Shown in pieces: positions 29,098 through 64,000 of a stretch of 64,000 nt of DNA (positions are counted from its first letter, which is position 1; the number at the start of each line of letters is the position of its first letter). The notes below the pieces were generated by a model. It worked only from the letters and a program-made list of their open reading frames with translations. It searched no databases and had not been told where the DNA came from. The stretch is from an uncultured Actinomycetota bacterium (GTDB lineage Bacteria > Actinomycetota > Actinomycetes > Mycobacteriales > Mycobacteriaceae), in contig CAVXKX010000006.1 of NCBI GenBank assembly GCA_963762535.1, positions 66,638 through 130,637 of the forward strand. The letters are read 5' to 3'. A program made the translations under genes and the position numbers.

Positions 29098-29397
29098 TTA
29101 GTCGGCAGCAGCTGCATTCAAGGCTTCTGTCAGCGCGTACGCACCCGCCCCGGAACGCAACGCGGCTACTACTTGCTCGTGCACCACCGCTGCTTGGGCA
29201 GCGATCTGCTGATAGGCGGCGCCTTGCTTACCGAATTGCGCCGCCGTCGTCGCCGAGACAATATCCGAAGCGGCCGGTGCCAGGCCGGTAGTTGGCGTCG
29301 CCGCAGCGGCGTTTCGTGCCGCCATCGCATCACCGAGACTCGCGAGGTTGCCCGCGGCCCCGGACAGATCCTCCGGTTGCGCAGTTACGAACGACAC
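29098..29397 (-). CDS. PE family protein (PE domain only)
   Basis: MSFVTAQPEDL..AAGNL...PTTGLAPAASD.VS, with the C-terminal YALTE (YxxxE) secretion signal. Confidence 0.93.
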   Translation of the reverse strand: MSFVTAQPEDLSGAAGNLASLGDAMAARNAAAATPTTGLAPAASDIVSATTAAQFGKQGAAYQQIAAQAAVVHEQVVAALRSGAGAYALTEALNAAAAD

Positions 29398-34552: not shown

Positions 34553-35214
34553 GGGCTGAGCCCTTCGATGAACGGGTTGGACCGGCGTTCCTCGCCGATC
34601 GTGGTCGAGTTGCCGTGACCGGGCAGCACCACCGTGCTGTCGTCGAGAACCAGCAGCTTGTCGACGATCGAGCGCAGCAGGTCGCGGCCGCTGCCGCCGA
34701 ACAGGTCGGTACGCCCGACCGACCGCTGGAACAGCGTGTCGCCGGTGAACACGAGACTTTCCTTATCGCCGCTCACCCGGAAAACCACCGATCCGCGGGT
34801 GTGGCCGGGCGTGTGGTCGACGGTGACGCTCACACCGGCGAGGTCGATCTTGTCCCCGTCGCGGTCGAGTTCGATGACCTGCTTGGGCTCGCGGAAGATC
34901 GCGGCGAGCAGTATCTGACCCAGTTTGGGCCCGAAATCCTTGATCGGGTCGGTCAGCATGAACCGGTCTTCGGGATGGATGTACGTCGGGCAGCCGAACG
35001 TGTCGGACACCTTCTGCGCCGACCAGATGTGGTCGATGTGGCCGTGGGTGAGCAATACCGCCGCCGGCGTCAGCCGATTCTTGTCGAGGATGCGCCGCAG
35101 CTGACCCATGGCACGCTGGCCCGGATCGACCACGATCGCATCCGCTCCGGGATGCGGTGCCAGCACGTAGCAGTTGCACTGCAGCAACCCGGCGGGAAAT
35201 CCGGTGATCAACAC
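34549..35214 (-). CDS. MBL-fold metallo-hydrolase (glyoxalase II-like), Rv2581c ortholog
   Basis: LLTHGHIDH, HTPGHTRGS, FTGDTLF and LPGHG. GTG start at MLITGFPAG. Confidence 0.92.
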   Translation of the reverse strand: MLITGFPAGLLQCNCYVLAPHPGADAIVVDPGQRAMGQLRRILDKNRLTPAAVLLTHGHIDHIWSAQKVSDTFGCPTYIHPEDRFMLTDPIKDFGPKLGQILLAAIFREPKQVIELDRDGDKIDLAGVSVTVDHTPGHTRGSVVFRVSGDKESLVFTGDTLFQRSVGRTDLFGGSGRDLLRSIVDKLLVLDDSTVVLPGHGNSTTIGEERRSNPFIEGLSP

Positions 35215-40416: not shown

Positions 40417-40463
40417 GTTCGTCACCTCCGGAGCCTCAAGGATATCGCCCATCACGCCGTGCG

Positions 40464-43995: not shown

Positions 43996-45949
43996 CTACC
44001 CCCGTCCTGTCGTGGACGCCCCGATGGTGGCAGCCCGCCGCTCCCGCGCGATCTGCTGGACCGCTCCCAGGCCGTTGAAAGCCGGCTTCGCCAGCGTCTT
44101 GGAGTTTCCGGCCAGGTAGACCAGCGGCCACGTCACCAGGAACACCACGACGGTGTCGAGTGCGGTCGTGAGTCCCAGCGTGAACGCGAACCCCTTGACC
44201 TGACCGATCGCCAGGACATACAGCACGGCGGCGGCCAGGAAGGTGACCGCATTACCGGACAGGATCGTCTTACGGGCCCGTCTCCAGCCCCGCGGGATCG
44301 CCGACCGGAACGATTTGCCTTCGCGCATCTCGTCTTTGATGCGCTCAAAGAACACGACGAACGAGTCCGCCGTCGTACCGATACCGATGATCAGACCCGC
44401 GATACCGGCCAGATCCAGGGTGTAGTTGATATATCGGCCCAGCAGCACCAGAATCGCGAAAACCATTGCGCCAGAAGCTACTAACGACACTGCGGTCAGC
44501 ACGCCCAGCGCTCGGTAGTACAGCAGCGAGTACAGCAGAACCAGACCCAGTCCGATCGCGCCGCCGATCAGGCCCGCCCGTAGCGACGTCAACCCCAGTG
44601 TCGCAGAGACAGTTTGAGCCTCCGACGACTCGAACGACAACGGCAACGAGCCGTACTTGAGGACGTTGGCCAGCTCCTTGGCCGAGCTGCCGGTGAACGG
44701 CGGGTCTCCCCCGGTGATCTGGGTACGGCCACCGGGGATGGCTTCCCGGATTTGCGGCGCGCTGACCACCTGCGAGTCGAGCGTGAAAGCGGTCTGGGTG
44801 CCGACGTGAGCGGCGGTGAAATCGGCCCAGGTGTTGGCCGCACCGCTCTTGAACTGCACATCGACGACATAACCGCCGCTGCGCTGGTCCATGCCCGAGG
44901 TGGCGTTCTCGATCTGGTCGCCGCTGATGATCGACGGCGCCAGCAGATAGGCCTGTTTGTGGTCCTTGTCGCAGGTCACCAGCGGCAGGTCGGGATCGTC
45001 GTTGCCGGCCAGGATGTCTTCCTGGAAGCAGCGGGTGGCCTGATATTGCAGCGCCAGGAATTGCACGCCCTTGTTGGTGCTCTGCCGCCACTCTCGTTCC
45101 TTGGCGATGCGCTGAGCGAGGTCTTTGCGTGGGTCCGGCGGTCCAGGCTGGATCGGCGGAATGACCGGAGGTGCGGGCTGAGCCGATGGAGCGGGCGCGG
45201 GTGCGGGCTGCGACGTGGCAGGTGCCGTCTGCGCGGGCTTCGGCGGTGCCGGCGTGGGCGACGAGGGCGCGTCCAGCGGATAGGGCCGGGGCTGGGCCGG
45301 GACGCCCGGGGTGTCGGGCAGCAGTGGCAGGTCGCCCGGCAAGCCGGGGTTCGGCGCGGGATGGTGGCTGGCGCCGGCGCGGGCGGAACCACGCCGGGTG
45401 TTGCGCCGGGCACCGGGGCGCCGGGCTGTGCCCCGGGTGCAGGCGCGCCGGGTTTACCCCAGGTGCCGGTGCGCCGGGCGGCGGCGCACCCGGTGCCCGA
45501 CCGGCCGGGCCCCTCGGTACGCCGCGCGGTGCGGGCAGCCGCGGGCCGCCCTGCATGCCGGCACTGTCGACGGGCAGAGCGTTGATGACGGGACGGATGT
45601 ACAACCGCGCGGTCTGGCCGAGATTGCGCGCCTCGTTCCCGTCGGTCCCCGGCACGGTGATGACCAGGTTGTCGCCGTTGACGATGACCTCAGAACCCGA
45701 CACGCCCAGGCCGTTGACCCGGGCGCCGATGATCTGCTGAGCCTGTGACAGCGCGTCCCGGCTCGGCCGCGACCCGTCCGGCGTCCGTGCGGTCAACGTG
45801 ACCCGGGTACCGCCTTGCAGGTCGATGCCAAGTTTCGGGTCGGCCCGCTTGTTGCCGGTGAGGAACACCAGCAAATAGACGCCGATGAGCAGGACCAGGA
45901 AAACCGCCAGGTAGCGGCTAGGGTGCACCGGCGCCGATCGCGATGCCAC
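43996..45949 (-). CDS. secD: Protein translocase subunit SecD (frameshifts in the Pro-rich insert at about 45350-45530)
   Basis: [52 protein letters not shown] and VKGFAFTLG. Confidence 0.95.
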
Positions 45950-46070
45950 GTGTTGAGTCTCCTCCGCTCATGCGCGATGCGCTTTTGTGCAGGTTGTCAA
46001 CCCGCCGTTCGCCTCTCACGCCCCGATCAGTTCGGCCGCACCGAAAAGGGTACGTGGCGGGCCGTCGACC

Positions 46071-47584: not shown

Positions 47585-48926
47585 GTGTCTGCGATCGAAC
47601 AGAGCCGCCACCTCGTCACCGAGATTCCTGGTCCGGCATCGCTGGAACTGAGCAGACGCCGCGCAGCGGCGGTGTCAGCCGGCGTAGGCAGGACAATGCC
47701 GGTGTTCGCCGCTCGAGCGGCAGGCGGAATCGTCGAGGACGTCGACGGGAACCGGCTGATCGACCTGGGCTCGGGCATCGCGGTCACGACCATCGGTAAC
47801 TCCGCACCGCGGGTCATCGACGCGGTGCGGGCACAGGTCGCCGACTTCACCCACACCTGCTTCATGGTGACGCCGTACGAGCAGTACGTCGCCGTCGCCG
47901 AGAAGCTCAACCAGCTCGCACCCGGCTCGGGTGAGAAGCGCTCGGTGCTGTTCAACTCCGGCGCGGAGGCGGTGGAGAACGCCGTCAAGATCGCCCGCGC
48001 CTACACGCGAAAAGATGCGGTGGTCGCGTTCGACCATGCCTACCACGGTCGCACCAACATGACGATGGCGCTGACCGCGAAGTCCATGCCCTACAAGAGT
48101 GGATTCGGGCCGTTCGCGCCGGAAATCTATCGGGCGCCCCTGTCCTACCCTTACCGCGACGGGCTGATCGACAAGGAGCTGGCCACCGACGGCGAGCTGG
48201 CCGCCCGGCGCGCCATCGACATCATTTCCAAGCAGGTCGGCGCCGACTAATCTCGCCGCGATCATCATCGAACCCATCCAGGGTGAAGGCGGTTTCATCG
48301 TCCCGGCCGAAGGGTTCCTGCCCGCACTGCTGAGCTGGTGCCGGCAGCACAACGTCGTGTTCATCGCCGACGAAGTGCAGACCGGGATCGCCCGGACCGG
48401 AGCCATGTTCGCCTGCGAGCACGAGGGCATCGAGCCTGACCTGATCTGTATCGCCAAGGGCATCGCCGACGGGCTGCCGCTATCCGCGGTCACCGGCCGC
48501 GCCGAGATCATGGACGCCCCACACTCCAGCGGCATCGGCGGCACTTTCGGCGGTAATCCGCTGGCCTGCGCGGCGGCGCTGGCGACTCTGGCCACCATCG
48601 AAGCCGACGGTCTGATCGAACGCGCTCATCAGATCGAACGGCTGATGAAAGGCCGGCTCCAGGCGCTGCAGGCCGCCGACGATCGCATCGGTGACGTGCG
48701 TGGCCGCGGCGCGATGATCGCCGTCGAGTTCGTCAAGCCTGACAGCGCCGAGCCCGATGCCGAGCTGACCAATGCACTCGCCGCCGCTGCACATGCCGCC
48801 GGCGTCATCCTGCTGACGGCCGGCACGTTCGGCAATGTCGTGCGCTTTCTACCGCCGCTGACCATCAGCGACGAGCTACTGACCGAAGGACTTGACGTCG
48901 TGGCCGGTCTGCTGGCGCAACTGTGA
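47585..48926 (+). CDS. gabT: 4-aminobutyrate--2-oxoglutarate transaminase (frameshift near 48248)
   Basis: FNSGAEAVENAVK, YHGRT, EPIQGEGGF, IADEVQTG and AKGIADGLPLS (PLP Lys). Confidence 0.93.
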
Positions 48927-49063
48927 AGCCCATCCGTTAGTCACCTCACATTTCCGCTCGCGGCAACCTTTGGGGAATATCGTTACCTTTGCTAACGTAG
49001 TAGTCCGTAGGCGCAACGAGGCGCCCGTCAGATTTCCCCAAGTCGCACATTGTGAGGTTCCGT

Positions 49064-52000
49064 ATGTCGACAGACACCGAAGAATTCCAGGAACAACGCG
49101 CCGCGAAGTTAGCCGCCGCCGACCCCGAGTTCGCAGCGGCGCGACCTGACCCGACCGTCAGCGAGGCCATCGAGGCCGCCGTGCCGCACCTTCCCGCGGT
49201 CGTCGAGGCCGTGTTGCACGGTTACTCCGACCGGCCCGCCCTGGCCCAGCGTGCGTATGAGCTGGTGACCGACCCGCAGACCGGACGCACCACTGCCACG
49301 CTGCTGCCCTGGTTCGACAAGGTCAGCTACGGCGAGCTGGCCGAGCGCGTCGGTGAGGTGTCTCGTGCGCTGACCGACGGGCTGATCAGCGCTGGTGACC
49401 GTGTCTGCGTGCTCGGCTTCACCAGCGTGGACTACACGACCATCGACATCGCGCTGGGCGTCGCGGGCGCCGTCTCGGTACCGCTGCAGACCAGCGCGGC
49501 GATCACCCAGCTGCAGCCGATCGTCGCCGAGACCGAGCCCACCGTCTTCGCCGCAAGTGTCGACTACCTGGCCGACGCTGTTGACGTGATCCTGGCCGCC
49601 GCCGAGGCGGGCCACCTTCCCGGACGCCTGGTGGTGTTCGACTACCGCGACGAGCTCGACGACAACCGCGAGGCACTGCAGCGCGCCCAGCAGCGGCTGG
49701 CCGGCCTCGAGCTGACCGTCGAGACGCTCAACGACCTCCGCGACCGGGGCGCCGCATTGCCGGCAGTCGGCGCCAAGACCGGCGCGAATGACCCGGAAGA
49801 CGTAGCCGACCCGCTGGCCCTGCTCATCTACACCTCGGGCAGCACCGGCGCCCCCAAGGGCGCGATGTACCCGCAGAGCAACGTCGCCAAGATGTGGAAC
49901 CGCTCGGCCAAGAACTGGTTCGGGCCCAGCGCCGCGTCGATCAGCCTGAACTTCATGCCGATGAGCCACGTCATGGGTCGCGGCACGCTGTACGGCACGC
50001 TCGGCAACGGCGGCACCGCCTACTTCGCCGCCAAGAGCGACCTGTCGACGCTGCTGGAAGACCTGCGGCTGGTGCGGCCCACCGAGCTGAACTTCGTCCC
50101 ACGCATCTGGGAGATGCTGTACAGCGACTTCCAGAGCGAGGTCGGCCGGCGGACCGCTGAGGGTGTCGACCGTCAAACCGCCGAGTCCCAAGTGATGGCC
50201 GAGCAGCGTGACGAATTGCTGGGCGGCCGCTACATCTTCGCGATGACCGGCTCAGCACCGACCTCTCCGGAGCTGCGGAACTGGGTCGAGTCGCTGCTGG
50301 AGATGCACCTGGTGGACGGCTACGGCTCCACCGAGGCGGGCATGGTCCTGCTCGACGGTGAGATCCAGCGCCCGCCGGTGATCGACTACAAGCTGGTCGA
50401 CGTTCCGGACCTGGGCTACTACGCCACCGACCGGCCATATCCGCGGGGCGAGCTGCTGCTCAAGACCCCCAACATGTTCCCCGGCTACTACAAGCGGGCC
50501 GAGACCACCGCCAGCGTGTTCGACGAGGACGGCTACTACCGCACCGGCGACGTGTTCGCCGAGATATCCCCGGACCACTTGGTCTACGTCGACCGCCGCA
50601 ACAACGTGCTGAAGCTGGCGCAGGGCGAGTTCGTCACCCTGGCCAAGCTGGAGGCGGAATTCGGCAACAGCCCACTGGTCCGCCAGATCTACATCTACGG
50701 CAACAGCGCCCAGCCTTATCTGCTGGCGGTCGTGGTGCCCACCGAAGATGCGCTGGCCACCCACAGCGCCGGCGCGCTCAAGTCGCGCATCGCCGAGTCG
50801 TTGCAGACCGTCGCCCGTCAGGCGAACCTGCAGTCCTACGAGGTGCCGCGTGACTTCATCATCGAGACCACGCCGTTCAGCCTGGAGAACGGCCTGCTGA
50901 CCGGTATCCGCAAACTGGCCTGGCCGAAGCTCAAGCAGCATTACGGCGAGCAGTTGGAGCAGCTGTACGCCGACCTGGCCGAAGGTCAGGCCAACGAGCT
51001 GGCCGAGCTGCGGCGCAGCGGCGCCGACGCGCCAGTGCTGGAGACCGTCAGCCGGGCCGCAGCGGCGCTGCTCGGTGCCGCGAAGTCCGATCTGACACCG
51101 GACGCCCACTTCACCGACTTGGGCGGAGACTCGTTGTCGGCGTTGACATTCGGCAACCTGCTGCACGAGATCTTCGACTGCGACGTGCCGGTGGGCGTGA
51201 TCGTCAGCCCGGCCAACGACCTGCAGGCGATCGCCACCTACATCGAGGGTGAGCGACAAGGCAGCAAGCGGCCCAGCTTCTCCTCGGTGCACGGTCGTGA
51301 CGCGGTCGAGGTGCATGCCAGTGACCTGACGCTGGACAAGTTCATCGACGCTGCGACGCTGGCCGCAGCACCTGAGCTGCCCGGGCCTGCCACCGAGGTG
51401 CGCACCGTGCTGTTGACCGGTTCCACCGGTTTTCTGGGCCGCTACCTGGCGCTGGAATGGCTGGAGCGGATGGACCTGGTCGACGGCAAGGTGATCGCCC
51501 TGGTGCGCGCGAAATCAGATGAAGACGCAAGGATGCGCCTCGACAAGACGTTCGACAGCGGCGATCCGAAGCTGCTGGAGCACTACCGGACGCTGGCCGC
51601 CGACCACCTCGAGGTCATCGCGGGCGACAAGGGTGAGGCCAATCTCGGCCTGGACGAGGCAACCTGGCAGCGCCTGGCCGACACCGTGGATCTGATCGTC
51701 GACCCCGCGGCCCTGGTCAACCACGTGTTGCCGTACAGCGAGTTGTTCGGCCCCAACGCTGTGGGCACTGCCGAGCTGCTGCGGATTGCGCTGACCAGCA
51801 AGCTGAAGGCCTTCGCCTACGTCTCGACAATCGGTGTGGGCGACCAGATCGAGCCCGGGAAGTTCATCGAGGACGCCGACATCCGGGAGATCAGTGCGAC
51901 CCGGCAGATCAACGACGGCTACGCCAACGGCTACGGCAACAGCAAGTGGGCCGGAGAGGTGTTGCTGCGCGAGGCCAACGACCTCTGCGGGCTGCCGGTC

Positions 52001-52600
52001 ACGGTGTTCCGCTGCGACATGATCCTGGCCGACACCACCTATGCGGGACAGCTGAACCTGCCGGACATGTTCACCCGGCAGATCCTCAGCCTGGTCGCCA
52101 CCGGTATCGCACCCGGCTCGTTCTACGAGCTCGACGCGGACGGCAACCGGCAACGCGCCCACTATGACGGGCTGCCGGTGGAGTTCATCGCCGAGGCGAT
52201 CTCGGAGTTGGGATCCCGGTTGGCGCATGAAGGAAGCGGGTTCCAGACGTATCACGTGATGAACCCGTACGACGACGGCATCGGCTTCGACGAGTACGTC
52301 GACTGGCTGATCGACGCCGGGTATCCGATCCAGCGGGTCGGCGACTACGCCACCTGGCTGCAGCGGTTCGAGACGGCACTGCGTGCCCTGCCCGAGCGTC
52401 AGCGCCAGTACTCGCTGCTGCCGCTGCTGCACAACTACCAGAAGCCGCAGGCACCGCTCAACGGGTCGATGGCTCCGACAGACCGGTTCCGCACCGCGGT
52501 GCAAGAGGCGAAAATCGGTCCGGATAAAGACATTCCGCACGTCTCGCAGGCGGTCATCGTCAAGTACGTCACCGATCTGCAGCTACTCGGACTGCTCTAG
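49064..52600 (+). CDS. car: Carboxylic acid reductase (A-T-R; FadD9/Car)
   Basis: A domain [11 protein letters not shown] and DGYGSTE, T domain LGGDSLSA, R domain TGSTGFLG and YGNSK. Confidence 0.96.
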
Positions 52601-52607
52601 ACCGGCG

Positions 52608-52661
52608 AACAGACGCAGAATCGCACGGCCGGACACCGGCTCGTGCGATTCTGCGTCTGTT
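52608..52661. repeat. REP-like long hairpin / terminator after car
   Basis: Perfect 20-bp arms AACAGACGCAGAATCGCACG and CGTGCGATTCTGCGTCTGTT, plus an inner GCCGG/CCGGC stem. Confidence 0.8.
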
Positions 52662-52678
52662 GGCGCCTGCTGCCGGTG

Positions 52679-53329
52679 CTACCGGTGTGCGCCGGCGTGT
52701 TTGCGGCGGCGGAAAAAGCCGCCCTTTTCCCGAACTTCCTGCTGGTAGGACTCGGGCGCGCGGTGGGTTTGCGCCTCTGGCGATACTGCCGGCGCGGCGA
52801 AGGCGCCGGATGCGTCCGTAGCCGGCACCGGCTCAGGGTCGCGGGCCAACTCCACATCCCGCGCCGTCCGGATCGTCACTCGCGCCAGGACCGCCCCACC
52901 AAGAAAGACGATCAGCGCACCGAGCCCGGAGAAGGACGCGAGCTCGATCGCCGCGCGCTTGGCGTCCGTCGAAGCGATCGGCTGGCCGACGTCGCCGAGG
53001 CGCAGGGTTGGCGCCAGTGTGCGGCCGATGACAAACCAGGCGCCCCCGATCACCGCGAGCCAACCGCCGAACATTGCCGTGGCGCGGTTTCCCGACACCA
53101 GCAACAGGACGCCGCCCGCCGCGGTGATGACTCCGGGGAACACCTCCAGCCATCCACGAGCAGTGGTCCACAGCCAGGCCTGATCCGGTGTGTGGGCGAA
53201 ATGCAAGTACGGCCCGATGAAGGGAATCAACGCTCCCCATGCACCCAGGCCGATTAGGAGCAATCCGCTCACCGCGCCACGGCTGCGCGGCATGTGCAGG
53301 GCGCGGACGCCCGACCGCGAGTCAGTCAT
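52679..53329 (-). CDS. Conserved actinobacterial membrane protein of unknown function
   Basis: MPRSRGAVSGLLLIGLGAWGALIPFIGPY...WLEVFPG, about four hydrophobic segments and a basic C-terminal tail. Confidence 0.78.
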   Translation of the reverse strand: MTDSRSGVRALHMPRSRGAVSGLLLIGLGAWGALIPFIGPYLHFAHTPDQAWLWTTARGWLEVFPGVITAAGGVLLLVSGNRATAMFGGWLAVIGGAWFVIGRTLAPTLRLGDVGQPIASTDAKRAAIELASFSGLGALIVFLGGAVLARVTIRTARDVELARDPEPVPATDASGAFAAPAVSPEAQTHRAPESYQQEVREKGGFFRRRKHAGAHR

Positions 53330-53573
53330 TTTCGAGTTCTCCTCACACAGTGGACACACCGGTGTGTGTCAAGAGCGTGCTGAGTACCCGTCTGCGTTGG
53401 CGATATAACCTGGGTCGCGGCCGCGTGTCGCGGGCGCTCCTTAGACCCGCCCTAGAGCCGGTCGGCGCGAACCTCGGTGAGCAACGTCGCAGTGTGGCAC
53501 TGAAACGGATAGTCACTGATTTATGAACCGAGCATCCGGATCCAGCAAAGGCTGGATTTTTTCAGTATCCGGC

Positions 53574-53963
53574 CTAGCGCCTGACGAGACCGATCACCAA
53601 CAGGACAACGGCGATGGCCGGGAACGTGCCCTGCGTCAGCGCCGCCCGCGCCTTGTCCGGCGCCGACGCCAGCAACACGGCCGCGGCCGCGACCATCGAT
53701 CCGACGCCGGCGAAGATCAGCGCAGCGCCAACACCCTTGTGCCCCAACTCAATTGCTCCGATACCCACGCCGGTGACGATCGCCAGAAAAAGGTTGTAGA
53801 AGCCCTGGTTGAACGCCAGCAGTTTGGTGGTCTCCGCTTCCTCAGCGGTAGTACCGAATGCGGCACGGGTGCGCTTGCTGGTCCAGGTCAACGACTCCAT
53901 CGTGAAGATGTAGACATGCAGCAACCCGGCCAGCCCGGCGAATACCAATGCGGCAGTGATCAT
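53574..53963 (-). CDS. DUF1304 family membrane protein
   Basis: LLHVYIFTMES, LAFNQGFYNLFLA and ALTQG. Confidence 0.88.
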   Translation of the reverse strand: MITAALVFAGLAGLLHVYIFTMESLTWTSKRTRAAFGTTAEEAETTKLLAFNQGFYNLFLAIVTGVGIGAIELGHKGVGAALIFAGVGSMVAAAAVLLASAPDKARAALTQGTFPAIAVVLLVIGLVRR

Positions 53964-54026
53964 CGCGATCTCCTACTCTCTGGTGTCGACCCGTTTCACC
54001 CGGCTCCGCCGCGCTCACGATCGCCA

Positions 54027-55081
54027 CTACTGGAAAAGTCCCGGCTGCCCCAGACCGCTGGCCCGCGGGGGTGGTGTCATCCCTAGGTGTGTCCACGCCT
54101 GCGGGGTCGCGACCCTGCCGCGCGGAGTGCGGGCGAGCATGCCGGCCCGCACCAGGAAAGGCTCGCACACCTCCTCGACGGTGGTGGCCTCTTCGCCGAC
54201 GGCGACCGCCAGTGTCGACACACCGACCGGCCCGCCGCCGAAGCTGCGGGTCAGCGCCGACAGCACTGCACGGTCCAGCCGGTCGAGGCCGAGCTCGTCG
54301 ACGTCATAGACCGCGAGCGCGGATTTGGCCACGTCACGGGTGATCACGCCGTCGGCGCGCACCTCGGCGAAGTCGCGGACCCGGCGCAGCAGCCGGTTGG
54401 CGATGCGCGGGGTGCCCCGCGAGCGTCGCGCGATCTCCGCGCCGGCCTCGCCACCGAGCTCGATTCCCAGGATCCCGGCAGAGCGGGTCAGCACCCGCTC
54501 CAACTCGGCCGGCTCGTAGAAGTCCATGTGTGCGGTGAACCCGAACCGGTCACGCAGCGGGCCGGTCAACGCACCGGACCGGGTGGTCGCACCGACCAGG
54601 GTGAACGGCGCCACCTCCAGCGGAATCGATGTCGCCCCAGGGCCTTTGCCGACGATGACGTCGACCCGGAAATCCTCCATCGCCAGGTACAGCATCTCTT
54701 CGGCGGGCCGGGCGATGCGGTGAATCTCGTCGATGAACAACACGTCGTGCTCGACGAGGTTGGACAGCATCGCCGCCAGGTCTCCGGCGCGTTCCAGCGC
54801 CGGGCCGGACGTCACCCGCAGCGACGACCCCAGTTCGGCGGCGATGATCATCGCCAGCGACGTCTTGCCCAGCCCGGGCGGACCGGACAGCAGGATGTGA
54901 TCCGGTGTGCCGCCGCGGTTTTTGGCACCCTCGATGACCAGCTGTAACTGTTCGCGCACCCGCGGCTGGCCGATGAACTCCCCCAGCGAGCGTGGCCGCA
55001 GGCTCGCGTCGACGTCGCCTTCGCCGACGGTCAGAGCCGCGGAGACCTCCCGGTCTTCGGGGTCTTCGTCTTAAGGCTCAT
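54027..55081 (-). CDS. ruvB: Holliday junction branch-migration helicase RuvB (indel near the start)
   Basis: [32 protein letters not shown] and LRDRFG. Confidence 0.96.
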
Positions 55082-55113
55082 CGGATCTCTACGCCGCATA
55101 TGTGTCAGCGGGC

Positions 55114-55705
55114 TCACTTCGTCTTCCCCAGCAACGACAGCGCCGACCGCAGCGCCGTCGACGTGGTGGCCTCCTCGTCGGCCGCCAATACTTTGTCGGT
55201 GGCCTCTTCGGCCTGTTTGGCCGCAAAGCCAAGTCCCACAAGGGCTTCCACCACCGGCCCGCGGATGCTATGGCCGTTGAGCGCTGGACCTGTCGACGGG
55301 CGAAACCGGACCGATCTTGTCGCGCAGCTCGAGCACCAGCCGCTCGGCGCCGCGCTTGCCGATGCCGGGAACCCGGGTCAGCGCGGTGACGTCGCCGTCG
55401 GCCAGTGCCTGCCGTAGCGCCGTCGCGTCGTACACCGCGAGCGTTGCCAGCGCGATCTTCGGGCCGACGCCGGAAACTCCGAGCAACGTCAGGAACAGAT
55501 CGCGGGCGTCTGCGTCGGGAAATCCGTAGAGCGTCATCGAGTCTTCGCGGACGATCATCGCGGTGATCAAGCGGGCTTCGCTGCCCCGCCGCAGCGTCGC
55601 GAGGGTAGACGGAGTCGCCATCAGCTTGTAACCGACGCCCGCCGCCTCGATGACCACATGGTCGAGTGCGACATCGAGCACCTCACCCCGCACCGACGCG
55701 ATCAT
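55114..55705 (-). CDS. ruvA: Holliday junction DNA-binding protein RuvA (frameshift near 55290)
   Basis: [34 protein letters not shown]; C-terminal VEALVGLGF in the shifted frame. Confidence 0.95.
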
Positions 55706-56255
55706 GTGGCTGCCCGCACTTTGGCAGCGAACTTTCTGCGCTGCTCGGCGACCTTGGCCTCAGCTTCGGCCATCCGAGCGATCATCGGCGCTCGCCAGCA
55801 GTGACAGATGGCCAGCGCGAGCGCGTCCGCCGCGTCTGCCGGCGTCGGTTTAGCTTGCAGCCCAAGGATTCTGGTGACCATCGTGGTGACCTGAGCCTTG
55901 TCGGCCCGGCCGTTACCGGTCACTGCGGCCTTGACCTCGCTGGGAGTATGGAAGTACACCTCGATGTTGCGTTTGGCCGCAGCGAGCGCGATCACGCCGC
56001 CGGCTTGCGCGGTCCCCATCGCGGTGTTGGCGTTCTGGTTGGCGAACACCCGCTCAATCGCGACGACGTCGGGCAGGTGGGTGTCCATCCAGTGATCGAC
56101 GGTGTCGCTGATCGTGAGCAGCCTTTTCGGCAGCGCCTCGCCGGCGGGAGTGCGCACTACATCGACATCGAGCGCGATGATCTGTCGGCCGCGCCGTTCT
56201 CCACGACTGACAGCCCGCAACGGGTCAGCCCGGGATCGACGCCCATCACCCGCAC
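55702..56255 (-). CDS. ruvC: Crossover junction endodeoxyribonuclease RuvC (indel near 56190)
   Basis: [41 protein letters not shown] and [12 protein letters not shown]. Confidence 0.95.
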
Positions 56256-56282
56256 AGCTTGCTCCGTTAGCCGACCGGTTGC

Positions 56283-56814: not shown

Positions 56815-56930
56815 GAAAATTTCTTCAAGATCTTTTCGCTGTTTCTATTTCAAATGTCGTTACGTAAACGGTACCTTAACGGCACCTGAGATCGACTCAA
56901 GTCAGTCATTACGGAAGGTCTATGGCGATG
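56815..56930 (+). promoter_or_regulatory. Conserved upstream/leader block, copy 1
   Basis: GAAAATTTCTTCAAGATCTTT...GGTACCTTAACGGCACCTGAG...CTCAAGTCA...GGAAGGTCTATGG is shared with 61297-61410. Confidence 0.7.
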
Positions 56931-59900
56931 GCTGGTCAGCGCTCCTCAAAGACACAGGTCGGCGAAGGCTAAGGCTCGTCGGCGTCGGACGTCTAGGCTT
57001 GGGTAGTAGTGCGGGGGCGTTTTTGGCGTTTGGGTTGGACCCGTTGGCGGGTGCGCCGAGCGCGAAGGCTGATGCGTTGACGCATTGGATTGATTTGATC
57101 ATCGAGTCGGCGGTGTCGTCGATGGCGGGTGCGGTGAACCCGGTGGAGTTTTTGGATCCGTGGGTGTTGACGGCGGCGTTTGGTGATTTGGCTACCCCGA
57201 ATGGGTGGGAAACGTTGTTTAATGATCTGTCCAGCATTGCCAGTGACGGGTTGGCGGTTCCGGATGCCGACCAGGCGGCGGCAACCGACACGGCCGGTGA
57301 TGCTGGCGCGGCGGCCTCAGCGACGGATCCGACGACGGCATTCTGGCAGGGTCTTGAGCAGGACTGGATCAACAGTTCGTTTGGTAAGCAGGTCGACAGC
57401 TCGTTGAACGCGTATATGGCCCAAGCCGATCCGGCGGCTGACCCCACCGGTGGGGCGTGCGGGTTGATCTGTAACGGTGCCGATGGCACCGGGGGCGGTT
57501 CGCTGACCGCGGCCGATGGCCAGGGCGGCGGGATCTTCTTCGGTAACGGCGGTAACGGCGCTACCGACGCGGCCGGCCAAGGCGGTGATGGCGGTAACGC
57601 CGACTTCTTCGGCAACGGCGGTAACGGCGGTGTCGGTGCGGATGGCGGGGACGGCGGTAACGGCGGTAACGGCGGGTAGTTCTACGGCAACGCCGGTAAC
57701 GGCGGTGACGGTGGGGCCGGGGTGGCCGGCGAGCATCGGTAATGTCGGCGGCGCTGGCGGTGCCGGCGGTAACGCGGGCACGGTGGGTGCGTTCAACTTC
57801 TTCGGCACCGGCGGCAACGGCGGTAACGGCGGGGTCGGCGGTGCCGGTGGTGCCGGGGCGACCGGTACGACCGGGGCGACCGGGTGTGGCCGGGGTCAAC
57901 GACGGCATGGGCGGCAACGGCGGCAACGGCGGGGTCGGCGAAAACGGTGGCGCGGGCGGGGACGGCGGCGATGCCAGCAAGGGCAGCTTGTTCGGGGCCA
58001 CCGGGGTCAACGGCAACGGCGGTAACGGCGGGGTCGGCGGCAACGCCGGGGCCGGCGGCAACGGTGGTGACGGTGCGGCCGGGGTGATCGGGGTGCCCGG
58101 CACCAACGACGTGAACGGTGCCGGCGGTAACGGCGGCAATGGCGGTGCCCCGGGCACGGTGGGCGGCACCGGTGGGCCCGGCGGGGCGGCCGGTACCGGC
58201 GGCACCGGCGGGATGAACGGCAACATGGGTGGTAACGGCGGCGCCAGCGACGATCGGCGGCAACGGCGGCAACGGCGGCAACGGCGCCGACGGCAGCTTC
58301 GCCGGCGGCGGCGCGGGCAACGGCGGCCTGGGTGGTAACGGCGGCAACGGTGCGGCCGGGTTCACCGACAACGGCGGCAACGGCGGCAACGGCGGGGTGG
58401 GTGCGCAAGGCGTCGCGTCGCCATCCCACCGGCGGTAACGGCGGGCAGGGCGGTAACGGCGGCAACGCGGGGTCGGTCGGTAACGGCGGTAACGGCGGGG
58501 TCGGCGGTAACGGCGGCCAGGGCATCAACGGCACCGACGGGATCACCGGCGGTAACGGGCACGGCACCGACGGCACCAACGGCGGCAACGGCGGCAAAGG
58601 CGGCAACGGCGGCGGCGGCGGCCAAGCCGGCACCGTGTCAGGGGTAACAGCGGCAACGGCGGCAACGGTGGGGTCGGCGGCATCGGCGGGTCGAGGCGGT
58701 AACGGCGGCAACGGCATGGATGGCACCGCCAGTGCACCCCAACGGCGGTGACGGCGGCGATGGCGGCAAGGCCGGTATCGGCGGCACCGGTGGTAACGGC
58801 GGACACGCCGGCACCGCCGGGACACCACCGGGAGCGGTCGGCAACGCCGGCAACGGCGGCCAAGGCGGCAGCGCCGGCACTGCGGGTAACGGCGGCAACG
58901 GCGGCACCGGCTACACCTTCACCAGCGGCGACCACGCCGGCGGTAACGGTGGCAATGGCGGTAAGGGCGGCAACGCCGGTACCGCGGGCAACGGCGGCAA
59001 CGCCGGCACCGGCAACGGCGGCACCGCAGGTGCGGCCGGCACCAACGGCAACGGCGGCACCGGCGGCAACGGCGGCAACGGCGGCAACGGATTCGGCAGC
59101 ACCGGGTTCGCCCGGCAACGCCGGCGATGGCGGCAAGGGTGGTAACGGCGGGAACGGCGGCAACGGCGGCACCGGCGGCACGGCATCGGCACCGGCGGCA
59201 ACGGCGGCAACGGCGGCACTCGGCGGTAACGGCAGCGACGGCGGCGCGGCGCCAACGCCGCTGCAACCCAACGGCAACGACGGCGGCAACGGCGGCAACG
59301 GCGGTAACGGCGGGGACGGCGGTAACAGCGGCCACCTCGGCGGTAACGGCGGCCAGGGCGGCAACGCCGGTAACGGCGGCAACGGCCGGTAACGGCTCGA
59401 CGGGCTTCCAGATCACCAACAACGTGATCGGCGACCCTGGCTTCAACGGCGGTAACGGCGGTATCGGTGGTGCCGGCGGCAACGCTGGTGACGGCGGTAA
59501 CGCCATAGGCACCCTGCAAGCCGGCAACGGCGGCAACGGCGGCACGGCAGGCGAGGGCGGCAACGGCGGCAACGACGGAGCCGGCTCTAACGCGCCTGGC
59601 CAAGCCCGATCAACATCGAAACACCAACGGCGGCGACGGCGGCGACGGCGGCAACGGCGGCTGCCGGCGGTGCCGGCGGCGACGGCGGCAACGGCGCACT
59701 CACCGGCAACGGCGGCACCGCCGCGGCAACGGCGGCAACGGCGGCATCGGCGGCACCGGCGCCAACGGCGGCGCCGCCGTCGGCACCGGCACCGGCGGCA
59801 ACGGCGGCAACCGCCGGCACGGGCGGCAGCGCCGGCGACGGCGGCAACGGCGGTAACAGCGGCGCCCTCGGCGGCAACGGCGGCACCGGTGGCGCCGGCG

Positions 59901-61025
59901 GCACCGGCGGCAACACCGGAGCCAGCGCCGGCAACGGCGGCTACAGCGCCAACGGCACCGGCGGCGACGGCGGTTAAGGCGGTCACGGCGGCAACGGCGG
60001 CTACGGCGGCGACGGCGGCGACAGCGGCAACGCCCGGCAACCGGTAACGGCGGCGACGCCGGCGCCGGCGGCAACGGCGGCAACAGCGTCGACGGCGGTA
60101 ACGGCGGCAACGGCGGGGCGGCCAACGGACAGCCAGGCCGGCGGCAACGGCGGCAACGGCGGCCAGGGCGGTGCCGGCGGCACCGCCGGCGCCGGCGGCG
60201 ACGGCGGCAACGCCGACGGATCCGGCAACGGCGGCAACGGCGGCAACGCCGGCAACAATGGCACCAACGCCACCGGCGGCAACGGCGGCACACGGCGGAG
60301 CGGCCAGCGCCACCGACAGCCCAGCACGGCGGCAACGGCGGCAACGGCGGCGACGGCAACTGCCGGCACCGGCGCCACCGCCACGGTGACGGCGGTAACG
60401 GCGGCAACGCGCCGGGCTCCGGCCACGGCGGCAACGGCGGCAACGGCGGCAACGACACCAACGCGAGTGCCGGCGGTAACGGCGGTAACGGTGGTGCGGC
60501 CAGCAACGTCGTGGGCGGCGGCAAGGGCGGCAACGGTGGCACCGGCGGCAACGGCGGGCAACACCGGCTAACCCGCCGCGGGCGGCAACGGCGGGGACGG
60601 CGGTAAGCGCCGGCCCGGGCGGCACGGCTGGTAACGGCGGTAACGGCGGGACCGCCGGCACCGGCGGCAACGGCGGCAACGGCGGCGCCGCAGGGCCCGC
60701 GGGCGCTGCCGGCGGCGGCAAGGCCGGCACCGACGGAGCCGGCGGCAACGGCTCGGGCGGCAACGCGGGCGGCGACGGTGGCAAGGGCGGCAGCTCTACC
60801 GGCGCCGGCACCGGCGGAACCGGCGGCAACGGCGAAAACGGCTCGGTCGGCGGTAACGGCGGCGCCAACGGCAACGGCGCTCGCGGGTACCACAGCTCCC
60901 GGGCTGGGCACCGCGAACGGCCCCACTGCGGGGACCCGGGCCAGCCGCGACACCGGCGCCACCGGCGGTAGCGGGTGGCAACGGCGGCCACGCGGGTATC
61001 GGCGGCAAGGGTGCGCCCCAAGTAA
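56928..61025 (+). CDS. PGRS (Gly-rich repeat) protein with an N-terminal signal peptide instead of a PE domain, copy 1 (many indels; one TAG at 57677)
   Basis: Basic N-region, then [24 protein letters not shown], an acidic domain, [10 protein letters not shown], and ~3.4 kb of GGNGGNG repeats. Confidence 0.8.
57530..60900 (+). repeat. PGRS GGC-GGC-AAC repeat tract
   Basis: Dense GGCGGCAACGGC / GGCGGTAACGGC 9-bp periodicity. Confidence 0.95.
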
Positions 61026-61041
61026 ATCGCTACAGGAGGCA

Positions 61042-61083
61042 ACACAAGGGAGAGGCCCGCTTCGGCGGGCCTCTCTTTTGTGT
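61042..61083 (+). terminator. Intrinsic terminator after PGRS copy 1
   Basis: An 11-bp stem GAGAGGCCCGC with a TTCG tetraloop and GCGGGCCTCTC, then TTTT. The stem extends with ACACAA/TTGTGT. Confidence 0.9.
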
Positions 61084-61296
61084 GTCGAATCGAAGCGTGC
61101 GTATTAGAACCGCCGGGGGATTTAGGGACACCCTAAAGAAGCATTCCAGCTACCAGTACGGCGAGCCCTCCGAGATCAGGCCGCCAGAGAACAGAAAGCT
61201 TCTTTCGAGAGCTTGCCTTGATCACATAAGTGAGGCCAAGAAAACTTACGGTTGTGAGCCTGCTAAATATAGCTGAGTGGCTCGCCCGACGGTGCG

Positions 61297-61410
61297 GAAA
61301 ATTTCTTCAAGATCTTTTTGCGTTTTCTATTTCGGCTGCGTTACATAAGAGGTACCTTAACGGCACCTGAGAACACTCAAGTCATGCTTAAGGAAGGTCT
61401 ATGGACGATG
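61297..61410 (+). promoter_or_regulatory. Conserved upstream/leader block, copy 2
   Basis: Collinear with 56815-56930 and ends at the equivalent ATG. Confidence 0.7.
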
Positions 61411-64000
61411 GCTGGTCAGCGCTCCTAAGAACAATCGGCAGTCGGCGAAGGCTAAGGCGCGTCGGCGGGATCTGGGCATTAGGCCTTCGGTGGTAGTGCC
61501 GGGGCGTTTTTGGCGTTTGGGTTGTACCCGCTGGCGGGTGCGCCGAGCGCCAAGGCCGATGTGTTCGACGACATCCTGGATCTGGCTGGTCGGGGTCGGC
61601 GGCCTCGTCGGCGATCACCGCGGTCAACCCGATCGATTTTTTGGACCCGGGGGTGTTGACCGGGTTGCTGAGGGATTTGAGCTACCCCGGCGGGGTGGGA
61701 AACGTTGTTCAACGATCTGGGTAACGCCAGCAGCCTTGACGCCTTGTTCTCGGGCCAGACCAGCCTGGCATCCGACACTGGCGCTGGCGCGGCGGCAGCC
61801 ACCGATCCCACGACGGCATTCTGGCAGGGTCTTGAGCAGGACTGGATTAACACCCCGTTTGGTCACGCAGGTCGACTCCTCGCTGAACACGTGGTTCGCG
61901 CAGGCCGATCCGGCCGCCGACCCCACCGGCGGGGCGTGCGGTCTGATCTGTAACGGCGCTGACGGTATCGGCGGCGGCTCGCTGACAGAGGCCGATGGCC
62001 AGGGCGGCGGGATCTTCTTCGGTAACGGCGGCAACGGCGCCACCGACGCCGCGGGCCAAGGCGGTGTGGGCGGTAACGCCGACTTCTTCGGCAACGGCGG
62101 TAACGGCGGCGTCGGTACGGACGGCGGCGACGGCGGCGATGGCGGTAACGGCGGGTTGTTCTTCGGCAACGCCGGTAACGGCGGTGACGGTGGGGCCGGG
62201 GTGCCCGGCGGCATCGGTGAGCCCGGCGGCGCCGGCGGTAACGGCGGTAACGCCGGCCAGGTGGGCCAGTTCGCCTTCTTCTTCAGCAACGGCGGCAACG
62301 GCGGCAACGGCGGGGTCGGCGGCATGGGCGGTGCCGGGGCCAGCGGCGCCACCGGGGCCACCGGGGTGGCCGGGGTCAACGACGGCATGGGCGGCAACGG
62401 CGGGTAGGGCGGTGTCGGTGAAAACGGCGGCGCGGGCGGTAACGGCGGCGACGGCAGCAAGGGCAGCGTGTTGTTCGGCAACACCGGCACCAACGGCAAC
62501 GGCGGCAACGGCGGGGCCGGCGGCAACGCCGGGGCCGGCGGCAACGGCGGCGACGGCGCGGCCGGGGTCTTGGGGCCTCAATGGCGCCAACAACGTCAAC
62601 GGCGCCGGCGGTGATGGCGGCAACGGCGGTGCCCCGGGCACGGTGGGCGGCACCGGTGGGCCCGGCGGGCACGCCGGCACCGGCGGGGTCGGCGGTGATC
62701 AACGGCAACATGGGTGCCAACGGCGGCGCCAGCACGATCGGCGGCAACGGCGGCAACGGCGGTAACGGCGGCGACCGGTGACTTCAGTGTGGCGGCCAGC
62801 GCCGGCAACGGCGGCCTGGGCGGCAACGGCGGCAACGGCGCGGCCGGGTTCACCGACAACGGCGGCAACGGCGGCAACGGCGGGGTCGGGAGCCCAAGGC
62901 ATCGCGTCGCATCCCACCGGCGGCAACGGCGGGCAGGCCGGTGACGGCGGCAACGCGGGGTCGGTCGGTAACGGCGGCAACGGCGGGGTCGGCGGTAACG
63001 GCGGCCAGGGCCTCAACGGCACCGACGGCACGGCCGGGTTCAACGGCAACGGCACCGACGGCACCGCCGGCGGCAACGGCGGCCTCGGCGGCGGCGGCGG
63101 TAACGGCGGCCAGGCCGGCACCGTGTCGGGTAACAGCGGCAACGGCGGCAACGGCGGGGTCGGCGGCATCGGCGGGCTACGGGCGGCAACGGCGGCAACG
63201 GCGCTCGAAGGCACCGCCAGTCACCCCAACGGCGGTGACGGCGGCGATGGCGGCAACGCCGGTGCCGGCGGCACCGGCGGCAACGGCGGACACGCCGGCA
63301 CGGTCCCGGTGACCAACACCACCGGGGCGGTCGGCAACGCCGGCAACGGCGGCCAAGGCGGCAGCGCCGGCACTGCGGGTAACGGCGGCAACGGCGGCAC
63401 CGGCTACACCTTCACCAGCGGACCGGCCACGCCGGCGGTAACGGCGGCAACGGCGGTAAGGGCGGCAACGCGGGTACCGCGGGCAACGGCGGCAACGCCG
63501 GCACGGCGGCAACGGCGGCACCGCAGGAGCGGCCGGCACCAACGGCAACGGCGGCACCGGCGGCAACGGCGGCAACGGCGGCAACGGCATTCGGCAACGG
63601 CGTTCGACGGCGGCAACGCCGGCGATGGCGGCAAGGGCGGTACCGGCGGCGCCGGCATCGCGCAACGGCGGCACCGGCGGCAACGGCGGCATCGGCGGTA
63701 ACGGCAGCGACGGCGCGGCAGCCAGTGTGTTGTCCAACGGCAACGACGGCGGCAAGGGCGGCACCGGCGGTGACGGCGGGGCCGGCGGTAACAGCGGCCA
63801 CCTCGGCGGTGACGGCGGCCAAGGCGGTAACGCCGGTAACGGCGGCAACGCCGGTAACGGCGCAGCCGGCTTCCAGATCGCCAACAACGTGATCAGCAGC
63901 GCCGGGCTACAACGGCGGTGACGGCGGTATCGGTGGCACCGGCGGCACCGGTGGTGACGGCGGTAACGCGATGGGCACCCTGCAAGCCGGCAACGGCGGC
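61408..64000 (+). CDS. Signal-peptide PGRS protein, copy 2 (truncated by the window end; many indels)
   Basis: Same ATGGCTGGTCAGCGCTCC start, [41 protein letters not shown], then Gly-rich repeats collinear with copy 1. Confidence 0.8.

What the first reader, a model, noticed from the sequence alone, without database searches (positions are those of the whole stretch)
56928..64000. PGRS proteins with a signal peptide rather than a PE domain, and CGLIC replacing the GRPLI linker
Both Gly-rich genes lack any PE N-terminus. They start with a basic, Arg-rich stretch, a hydrophobic core ([14 protein letters not shown]) and an A-x-A cleavage site (AKA-D). An acidic domain follows, then [12 protein letters not shown] where PE_PGRS proteins have GRPLIGNGA.G. 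Established: canonical PE_PGRS proteins use the PE domain for ESX-5 export. Inference: these PGRS proteins are exported by Sec or Tat, may carry a disulfide-bonded linker, and could be an ancestral or alternative PGRS architecture. M. tuberculosis has PE_PGRS44 in this same neighbourhood, on the other side of ruvABC.
Basis: partly seen in the sequence, partly recalled or inferred. Interest (0 to 1): 0.65.

Follow-up and report, generated by a model that had tools for sequence, protein, structure and literature searches.

The report
Signal-peptide PGRS genes with CGLIC linker
Two tandem genes of an environmental Mycobacterium encode glycine-rich "PGRS" surface proteins. They are led by an ordinary export signal and a cysteine-pair linker instead of the PE domain of tuberculosis-type bacteria. 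They belong to a widespread, unnamed family that may show where PE_PGRS proteins came from, but both copies in this assembly are broken by many frame errors.

Summary
Gene 1 (56928 to about 61030) and gene 2 (61408 to about 65500, past the window end) are 85.7% identical tandem copies. Each has:
- a long basic signal peptide ending A-K-A|D
- an acidic, lysine- and arginine-poor N-domain
- the motif [12 protein letters not shown]
- about 1,150 residues of PGRS repeats

No PE domain lies near them in any frame.

They belong to a real family:
- There are at least six paralogues in the same genome, 110 protein clusters, and 56 loci in environmental Mycobacterium MAGs and Mycolicibacter isolates. 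Many of these loci are intact, and several exceed 1,100 residues.
- CG[LF]ICNG aligns in register with GRPLIGNG of PE_PGRS (hhalign 98.8%).
- In intact members its two cysteines are the only ones in the mature protein.
- The motif occurs in 52 of 301 Mycobacterium genomes and in none of 133 genomes from other genera.
- Carriers almost never have GRPLIGNG (1 of 52 against 7 of 26).

Sec export is my best guess. Tat is not excluded.

Both window copies carry about 15 and 24 frame breaks plus stop codons.

This is a new variant of a known kind, and earlier windows of this scan have already met it.

The parts
56815..56927 (+). AT-rich leader shared by both copies (second copy 61297-61407). It includes a Shine-Dalgarno-like GGAAGG at 56913-56918.
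   Evidence: The blastn alignment of the two units starts here; sequence. There is no Rfam family and no sigma-70 consensus hit.
56928..57070 (+). Gene 1 signal-peptide region: MAGQRSSK... basic n-region, [17 protein letters not shown] h-region, APSAKA c-region. It is read across three frames as assembled.
   Evidence: Three-frame translation; comparison with 53 intact homologous leaders.
57071..57451 (+). Gene 1 acidic N-domain of 127 aa (D+E 19, K+R 1, pI 4.05), with the conserved [19 protein letters not shown] block.
   Evidence: AlphaFold2 predicts it helical at low to moderate confidence. It has no Pfam, NCBIfam or PDB relative.
57452..57487 (+). Gene 1 linker [12 protein letters not shown] (CxxxC), the start of the PGRS fold.
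   Evidence: Pfam PGRS model position 1 falls here. hhalign puts it in register with GRPLIGNG. pLDDT is 85-92 from here on.
57488..61030 (+). Gene 1 PGRS body of about 1,150 codons, with about 15 frame changes and in-frame stops (TAG at 57677-57679).
   Evidence: Frame-following Viterbi; per-frame glycine content; end region.
61049..61074 (+). GC-rich hairpin followed by a T run after gene 1, probably an intrinsic terminator. The same hairpin follows gene 2.
   Evidence: Weak Rfam hit to the 3' hairpin of RsmY. The hairpin and T run were read by eye from the translations.
61408..61557 (+). Gene 2 signal-peptide region (MAGQRS..., [23 protein letters not shown]), frame-shifted.
61558..61930 (+). 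Gene 2 acidic N-domain, with about three single-base insertions relative to intact homologues from Illumina MAGs (85-88% identity).
61931..61966 (+). Gene 2 linker [12 protein letters not shown].
61967..64000 (+). Gene 2 PGRS body. It continues to about 65500 in window numbering, beyond the window, with about 24 frame changes in all.

Best explanation
These are two tandem copies (a 4.48-kb unit) of a signal-peptide PGRS gene. This family is specific to Mycobacterium in the broad sense and runs parallel to PE_PGRS.

Proposed mechanism
1. The precursor carries an unusually long signal peptide of about 49 aa, with a conserved polybasic n-region (shown).
2. The general Sec pathway most likely carries it across the plasma membrane unfolded (inferred).
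3. Signal peptidase I cuts after A-x-A, exposing Asp (inferred).
4. The mature protein is extremely acidic and almost free of Lys and Arg (shown).
5. It starts with a helical N-domain of about 125 aa (predicted at low to moderate confidence). Then comes C-G-L-I-C-N-G, the structural equivalent of the GRPLIGNG that opens each PGRS 'sail' in PE_PGRS proteins (register shown).
6. The two cysteines are the only ones in the mature protein (shown). They probably form a small disulfide clasp after export (inferred).
7. The roughly 1,150-residue polyglycine-II body that follows would sit on or leave the cell surface (inferred). In relatives the same leader carries other passengers: a beta-propeller and a phosphoesterase (shown).

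The copies in this assembly are interrupted many times. I cannot tell whether that reflects sequencing error or real decay.
For: Family
- At least six paralogues lie in the same genome.
- There are 110 protein clusters at E<1e-3, named only 'PGRS repeat-containing protein' by NCBI.
- There are 56 loci in environmental Mycobacterium MAGs and in Mycolicibacter senuensis, algericus and kumamotonensis. Many are intact, and several exceed 1,100 aa.
- All 19 sampled CGLIC loci from complete genomes have signal-peptide-like N-termini and no PE domain.

Signal peptide
- Across 53 leaders the mean length is 49 aa, n-region charge +8.5, h-region 21 aa with Kyte-Doolittle mean 1.43, and A-x-A|D in 53 of 53.

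PGRS identity
- PF21526 scores 34-57 bits in intact members (cut-off 27), starting exactly at the motif.
- hhalign against 14 PE_PGRS N-termini gives 98.8% probability, E 1e-16 and 49% identity, starting at G-L-I-C aligned with P-L-I-G.

Cysteine pair and charge
- C130 and C134 are invariant.
- They are the only cysteines in mature proteins of 900-1,160 aa. K+R is 0-8 against D+E 48-105.

No PE_PGRS in this genome
- All 16 PE hits sit in frames of 303 aa or less.
- The seven long PGRS-type glycine-rich loci all carry this leader. One other long glycine-rich stretch, on contig C17, is unrelated low-complexity sequence.
Against: - Neither window copy is an open frame. There are about 15 and 24 frame changes, plus stops, so expression of full-length protein from this locus is unproven.
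- Sec is not shown. RR is present in 87% of leaders and a basic residue at -2 in 83%. The h-region is only moderately hydrophobic, which are Tat-like traits.
- Some relatives have a near-canonical RRFLA.
- One passenger family, PF04185, includes known Tat substrates (my own knowledge).
- An i/i+4 disulfide is geometrically awkward in an extended polyglycine-II strand, and I could not inspect model coordinates.
- The N-domain model has low confidence (pLDDT about 50-75).
- How such a protein would cross or insert into the mycomembrane is unknown.
Confidence: 0.7

Rival explanations
1. The same family, but exported folded by the twin-arginine (Tat) pathway rather than by Sec.
For: - The signal peptides are long, about 49 aa. 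RR occurs in 87%, the h-region is glycine- and alanine-rich and only moderately hydrophobic, and K, H or R sits at -2 of the c-region in 44 of 53 ('Sec-avoidance'-like).
- The G035 tandem members have RRFLA[TA]G.
- The same leader fronts PF04185 phosphoesterases. That family includes Tat-exported phospholipases C (my own knowledge).
Against: - A TatP-type motif, RR.[FGAVML][LITMVF], quoted from memory, fits only 27 of 55 leaders. It fails in all Mycolicibacter isolates and in most of the phosphoesterase subgroup.
- RR is replaced by RH, RP, GR or SR in several members.
- Pfam TAT_signal and the NCBIfam models gave no hit.
- A lone conserved cysteine pair suits oxidation after unfolded export.
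- Glycine-rich passengers of 120 kDa or more are atypical Tat cargo (my own knowledge).
Confidence: 0.25
2. The two window genes are true pseudogenes, decayed relics of a tandem duplication, and make no protein in this organism.
For: - Their frame-break density is about 1 per 250 bp. That is five to eight times higher than in the other PGRS paralogues of the same assembly, at 1 per 1-2 kb.
- There are in-frame stops from substitutions, such as TAG where gene 2 has TTG.
- Gene 2 has single-base insertions in non-homopolymer context within its non-repetitive N-domain.
- Long ORFs elsewhere in the genome are intact, up to 4,154 aa, and the genome-wide ORF N50 is normal.
Against: - Conserved neighbours are also split when compared with relatives: the relA-like and secD-like genes, ruvA and ruvC; ruvB also lacks an in-frame start. 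That points to local consensus error.
- The ruvC lesion is one G missing from a G run.
- Related loci from long-read MAGs show the same kind of breaks, while Illumina MAGs and isolates are intact.
- The genome is probably a metagenome bin (94% complete, 3% contamination, 18 contigs).
Confidence: 0.4
3. They are ordinary PE_PGRS genes whose PE domain is hidden by the frame errors or lies just upstream.
For: The N-terminus is frame-shifted, so a single-frame reading is unreliable.
Against: - The six-frame PF00934 search finds no PE within 27 kb.
- Stitched across frames, the N-terminus matches residue by residue the leaders of intact homologues with no PE.
- The 700 bp upstream is AT-rich non-coding DNA running to the divergent ruvC.
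Confidence: 0.02
4. The hydrophobic segment is an uncleaved N-terminal membrane anchor, so the protein stays tethered to the plasma membrane.
For: The h-region is 21 aa, long enough to span a membrane, and the n-region is strongly positive, giving an N-in topology.
Against: - A-x-A with Pro at -6, followed by Asp, is invariant in 53 of 53 leaders. That pattern marks a signal peptidase I site.
- The h-region is glycine-rich, with a helix-breaking G-P.
Confidence: 0.08

Closest known systems
PE_PGRS proteins of M. tuberculosis, M. marinum and related slow growers (PE domain PF00934, then a GRPLI linker, then PGRS PF21526; predicted PGII-sandwich 'sails', PMC9436101)
   Same: - The PGRS body is homologous (hhalign 98.8%; PF21526 over threshold in intact members).
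- The linker sits in the same register ([CG]-L-I-[CG]-N-G-A-x-G).
- Both are acidic with few basic residues.
- Both show modular C-terminal passengers.
- An LEQD..IN[SA]P block before the linker looks alike by eye.
   Different: - There is no PE domain and hence no PE-borne ESX secretion signal. A classical cleavable signal peptide takes its place.
- A new acidic N-domain is present.
- A cysteine pair replaces Arg-Pro...Gly.
- The family is found in environmental Mycobacterium and Mycolicibacter genomes that lack GRPLIGNG. The literature describes PE_PGRS as confined to pathogenic slow growers (PMC10216338, PMC4229189), and a review table lists 0 pe_pgrs for Mycolicibacter terrae (PMC12209268).
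'PGRS repeat-containing protein', the NCBI annotation name for these MAG proteins
   Same: These are the same proteins (for example WP_422225902.1 and MGH3562721.1).
   Different: The name records only the repeats. Neither Pfam nor NCBIfam (as searched here) has a model for the leader, the N-domain or the CxxxC motif. None of three full-text searches turned up a paper on PGRS proteins without a PE domain.
Extended signal peptides of very large surface proteins (ESPR of autotransporters, YSIRK leaders of Gram-positive surface proteins)
   Same: Both have a conserved N-terminal extension of the signal peptide on very large repetitive exported proteins. This is an analogy from my own knowledge.
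   Different: There is no sequence similarity, the envelopes differ, and no function of the extension was tested here.
Snow-flea antifreeze protein (PDB 2pne), a solved polyglycine-II sandwich
   Same: It is the top structural match of the model, and the only polyglycine-II one.
   Different: The match is not significant (E 0.95, TM 0.11-0.25).

Membership tests
PE_PGRS | N-terminal PE domain (PF00934) | tested here: not met
   The six-frame genome search finds no PE within 27 kb of the genes. Pfam on the N-terminal frames shows no PE at E<=1.
PE_PGRS | GRPLI(GNG) linker between the PE and PGRS domains | tested here: not met
   [12 protein letters not shown] sits at the homologous position. 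The GRPLIGNG pattern is absent from the own genome.
PE_PGRS | ESX-5-dependent export through the PE-borne secretion signal | not testable with these tools
   No PE domain is present to carry such a signal. Export was not assayed.
PGRS repeat domain (Pfam PF21526) | Score at or above the gathering threshold of 27 bits | tested here: inconclusive
   The window fragments score 21.4 bits (gene 1) and 26.4 bits (gene 2), just under the threshold because the frames are cut short. Intact family members score 34-57 bits. The profile-profile comparison with PE_PGRS gives 98.8%.
Sec-type signal peptide cleaved by signal peptidase I | Positive n-region, hydrophobic h-region, and small residues at -3 and -1 | tested here: met
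   53 of 53 homologous leaders have A-x-A|D, a 21-aa h-region and n-region charge +8.5. Gene 1 has ...[19 protein letters not shown]|D. This was a rule-based count, since no SignalP was available.
Sec-type signal peptide cleaved by signal peptidase I | Demonstrated cleavage and Sec dependence | not testable with these tools
   This needs N-terminal sequencing and reporter fusions.
Tat signal peptide | Conserved twin-arginine motif (S/T-R-R-x-F-L-K; TatP-type RR.[FGAVML][LITMVF]) | tested here: inconclusive
   RR occurs in 87% of leaders, but the motif fits only 27 of 55. Some relatives have RRFLA.
Tat signal peptide | Match to a curated Tat-signal model | tested here: not met
   Neither a Pfam search of eight leaders at E<=10 nor an NCBIfam search of four proteins at E<=1 returned any Tat-signal model (expected, from my own knowledge: PF10518, TIGR01409).
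Bacterial lipoprotein | Lipobox with Cys at +1 | tested here: not met
   No Cys lies in or next to the c-region. The first Cys is about 100-145 residues into the mature chain.

The most novel reading that the evidence does not exclude
Signal-peptide PGRS proteins are the older form of the PGRS world.
- The polyglycine-II 'sail' first evolved in environmental mycobacteria as a Sec-exported, disulfide-clasped, lysine-free surface module.
- PE_PGRS of the tuberculosis lineage then arose once, when a PE domain replaced the leader and the CxxxC clasp became GRPLI.
- On this reading, PGRS export and surface display do not intrinsically need ESX-5.

Support so far:
- PE-linked PGRS form a single clade nested among signal-peptide forms.
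- Signal-peptide proteins with GRDLIGNG or true GRPLIGNG linkers exist as intermediates.
- The two linker types are nearly exclusive across genomes.
Probability: 0.35. Interest if true: 0.75.

Novelty: new variant of a known kind. Interest (0 to 1): 0.55.

Why it matters
- Papers found here (PMC10216338, PMC4229189) describe PE_PGRS proteins as confined to pathogenic slow-growing mycobacteria. The PGRS domain is discussed there as part of PE_PGRS proteins, with the PE domain and ESX-5 handling export (PMC9436101).
- A family in about one sixth of sampled Mycobacterium genomes puts the same domain behind a classical signal peptide. This shows the domain is older and more widely used than that view allows.
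- It gives a natural experiment on whether PGRS 'sails' need ESX-5.
- It offers tractable, non-pathogenic sources (Mycolicibacter isolates) for the structural and localisation work that has been hard with PE_PGRS proteins.
- The invariant, solitary CxxxC at the exact GRPLI position is a concrete, testable handle on what that conserved linker does.

Tried and rejected
- **The search for related loci with the seven-sequence alignment:** I repeated it with one paralogue.
- **First two ruvABC multiple alignments:** useless because of flanks and mixed orientation. I redid them with oriented sequences.
- **Rfam and promoter or terminator scans of the shared leader:** nothing above noise, except a terminator-like hairpin after gene 1.
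- **NCBIfam on four family members:** no model.
- **PDB by profile and by fold:** no relatives. The snow-flea antifreeze match is not significant.
- **Pfam on the three ORFs between fadD9 and ruvB (52643-54086):** nothing, so there is no PE_PGRS remnant at the M. tuberculosis position.
- **GH5-like C-terminal region of P0054 and P0068:** I suspected it by eye, but Pfam did not confirm it, so I do not claim it.
- **Glycine-rich locus on C17 (292296-294233):** unrelated low-complexity sequence.
- **Upstream LEQD..INxP similarity to PE_PGRS:** not captured by hhalign, so it stays an observation by eye.

Full report
**What is in the window**

The region from 56.8 kb to the window end holds two head-to-tail copies of a 4.48-kb unit. 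Unit 1 (56815-61076) aligns with unit 2 (61297-65554 in window numbering) at 85.7% identity with 214 gap positions. Each unit has four parts:
- an AT-rich leader with a GGAAGG ribosome-binding site
- a start codon (56928 in gene 1, 61408 in gene 2)
- a glycine-rich gene of about 1,350 codons on the + strand
- a GC-rich hairpin with a T run

G+C rises from 0.53-0.59 in the leader to 0.73-0.79 in the repeats. Gene 2 runs about 1.5 kb past the window end. The genes lie just beyond ruvC, which is divergently oriented.

It opens MAGQRSSK, the family's usual N-terminus. The rest of the basic stretch and the hydrophobic core can only be read by stepping through three frames. After that, one frame stays open from about 56985 to 57676. 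It gives ...[23 protein letters not shown]|DALTHWIDL..., then a 127-residue acidic domain (19 D+E, 1 K+R, pI 4.05), then [12 protein letters not shown], then GGxGG repeats. Gene 2 has the same parts.

No PE domain is present. The six-frame PF00934 search of the whole genome finds 16 PE hits, none nearer than 29116-29388. Pfam on the N-terminal frames reports only PGRS.

**State of the two genes**

Neither gene is intact in this assembly. A frame-following model needs about 16 frame switches for gene 1 and about 24 for gene 2. There are also in-frame stops, for example TAG at 57677-57679 where gene 2 has TTG.

I could not decide whether this is error or decay. Evidence for assembly error:
- Conserved neighbours are also split when compared with relatives: a relA-like gene near 39980, a secD-like gene near 45510, two others, ruvA and ruvC. 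ruvB also lacks an in-frame start.
- The ruvC lesion is one G missing from a G run.
- Related loci from long-read metagenome bins show the same kind of breaks, whereas Illumina bins and isolates are intact.

Evidence for real decay:
- The break density, about 1 per 250 bp, is five to eight times that of the other PGRS paralogues in the same genome.
- Gene 2 has single-base insertions outside homopolymers in its non-repetitive N-domain.
- The genome as a whole has intact ORFs up to 4,154 codons and a normal ORF N50.

**A real family**

- The N-terminal 190 residues find paralogues at six further loci in the same genome, each with a readable, unbroken N-terminal leader.
- They match 110 clusters in a 1.8-billion-protein library, 34 of them below 1e-10.
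- Where named, these clusters are called 'PGRS repeat-containing protein' from Mycobacterium MAGs.
- A scan of one genome per species found 56 loci, mostly in soil and water Mycobacterium MAGs. It also found cultured Mycolicibacter senuensis, M. algericus and M. kumamotonensis, where the frame stays open for more than 1,170 codons.

**The leader**

Fifty-three homologous leaders average 49 residues. They share:
- a conserved polybasic n-region of about 22 residues (net charge +8.5)
- a 21-residue glycine- and alanine-rich h-region ([19 protein letters not shown])
- an invariant A-x-A followed by Asp

This is a cleavable signal peptide by every rule I could apply.

The export route is less clear. 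Tat-like traits are RR in 87% of leaders, a basic residue at -2 in 83%, and modest hydrophobicity. Against Tat:
- A TatP-type motif, quoted from memory, fits only 27 of 55 leaders.
- RR is lost in several members.
- No Tat HMM matches.

Some distant members have a near-canonical RRFLA. I favour Sec, mainly because the motif is not conserved and because a lone conserved cysteine pair suits oxidation after unfolded export. This remains an inference.

**The linker and the cysteines**

In a 40-sequence alignment, W99, C130, G131 and C134 are invariant. In intact members of 900-1,160 mature residues, the two cysteines of C-G-[LF]-I-C are the only cysteines in the protein. Lys plus Arg number 0-8, against 48-105 Asp plus Glu.

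Several results place the motif at the start of the PGRS fold:
- Pfam's PGRS model begins exactly at the motif. Intact members pass its threshold at 34-57 bits, against a cut-off of 27.
The alignment starts with G-L-I-C-N-G-A-D-G over P-L-I-G-N-G-A-x-G.
- AlphaFold2 models the stretch from the motif onward at pLDDT 85-92. It models the N-domain as helices at only 50-75.

So CGLIC does occupy the GRPLI position, which published AlphaFold models place at the start of the PGRS domain (PMC9436101). A disulfide between the two cysteines is the simplest reading but is untested. An i/i+4 bond would need a local turn.

**Distribution and relation to PE_PGRS**

- The DNA pattern for CG[LF]ICNG occurs in 52 of 301 genomes of the genus, with 1-8 copies each. 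The reversed control has no hits. The tool's genus evidently includes Mycolicibacter.
- The pattern is absent from 133 genomes of 33 other genera of the family.
- Only one of the 52 carriers has a GRPLIGNG pattern, a single copy. Seven of 26 non-carriers have it, six of them with 8-39 copies. Fisher's exact test gives p = 0.0015, not corrected for phylogeny.
- The own genome has no PE_PGRS. All its PE frames are 303 aa or shorter, and all its long PGRS-type loci carry the signal-peptide leader.

Intermediates exist:
- An own-genome paralogue reads ...INAPFVELFGRDLIGNG behind a signal peptide.
- One relative has a true GRPLIGNG behind a signal peptide with no PE.

In a maximum-likelihood tree of the linker plus 95 residues, the 20 PE-linked sequences fall in one clade (support 96/91) nested among signal-peptide forms. 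Two CGLIC proteins and the GRDLIGNG paralogue sit inside that clade. The root is a midpoint, the segment is short and glycine-rich, and only four PE_PGRS genomes were sampled. This suggests that the signal-peptide form is older but does not show it.

**Modularity**

The same leader and N-domain also precede other passengers:
- a PGRS block plus a YNCE-like beta-propeller (P0013)
- a non-PGRS passenger with a PF04185 phosphoesterase domain (L034, L037)

The [11 protein letters not shown] motif is kept even where the upstream N-domain is replaced by a short unrelated one. The motif therefore belongs to the PGRS start rather than to the N-domain.

In a single-contig relative of 4,411,532 bp, a 554-codon ORF with 37% glycine and GRPLIGNG lies between the fadD9 and ruvB homologues. 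In the window, that gap (52600-54027) holds no recognisable domain, and the signal-peptide PGRS pair lies on the ruvC side.

**Known or new**

None of three full-text searches turned up a paper describing PGRS proteins without a PE domain. Papers found there describe PE_PGRS as limited to pathogenic slow growers (PMC10216338, PMC4229189), and a review table lists 0 pe_pgrs for Mycolicibacter terrae (PMC12209268). NCBI's annotation recognises the repeats only.

Earlier notes of this scan report the same general family in other genomes. Those notes are leads, not evidence, and they lower the surprise. What this window adds:
- the solitary invariant CxxxC at the GRPLI position
- the near-exclusive distribution of the two linker types
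- the lysine-free acidic make-up
- the nested position of PE-linked PGRS in the tree

I class the finding as a new variant of a known kind.

Noticed in passing
window 34231-34996, 38043-40449, 43999-45955, 47585-48341, 54027-56260: Conserved genes are each split between two reading frames relative to two relatives: a relA-like gene, a secD-like gene, two others, ruvA and ruvC. ruvB has no in-frame start. The fadD9-like ORF of 1,182 codons (49052-52600) is intact. This could be scattered consensus indels in a metagenome bin, or unusual gene decay.
   Followed up: partly
window 54000-54029: A 30-nt element just 3' of ruvB recurs in relatives as tandem arrays with a period of about 55-57 nt (for example eight copies in G004 contig C4). 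It looks like a MIRU-type intergenic repeat.
   Followed up: no
contig C6 132269-132388 (- strand), which is 65632-65751 in window numbering, past the window end: A 120-nt copy of the 5' end of ruvC (83% identity) lies just after gene 2. This hints that the duplication history of the PGRS unit involved the ruvC-proximal flank.
   Followed up: no
window 29116-29388 (-): A short stand-alone PE gene (106-codon frame, PF00934 at 91.7 bits). It is one of 16 PE hits in the genome, and none of them is fused to PGRS repeats.
   Followed up: partly
loci L034 and L037 (3001-5052): The same leader, N-domain and CGLIC motif front a non-PGRS passenger with a PF04185 phosphoesterase domain and a weak HpiC1-like (carbohydrate-binding-like) domain. 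A truncated own-genome paralogue lies at contig C2 701338.
   Followed up: partly
loci L120 and L121 (G035 contig C1, about 1086-1088 kb): This is a tandem pair of short-leader CGLICNG proteins. Their signal peptides carry a near-canonical Tat motif (VRRFLA[TA]G), unlike the window's subfamily.
   Followed up: no
locus L114 (G290 contig C1, about 4701 kb): A protein with a signal-peptide-like N-terminus, a long Ala/Pro/Ser-rich spacer and a true GRPLIGNG linker but no PE domain. It is a possible intermediate between the two architectures.
   Followed up: no
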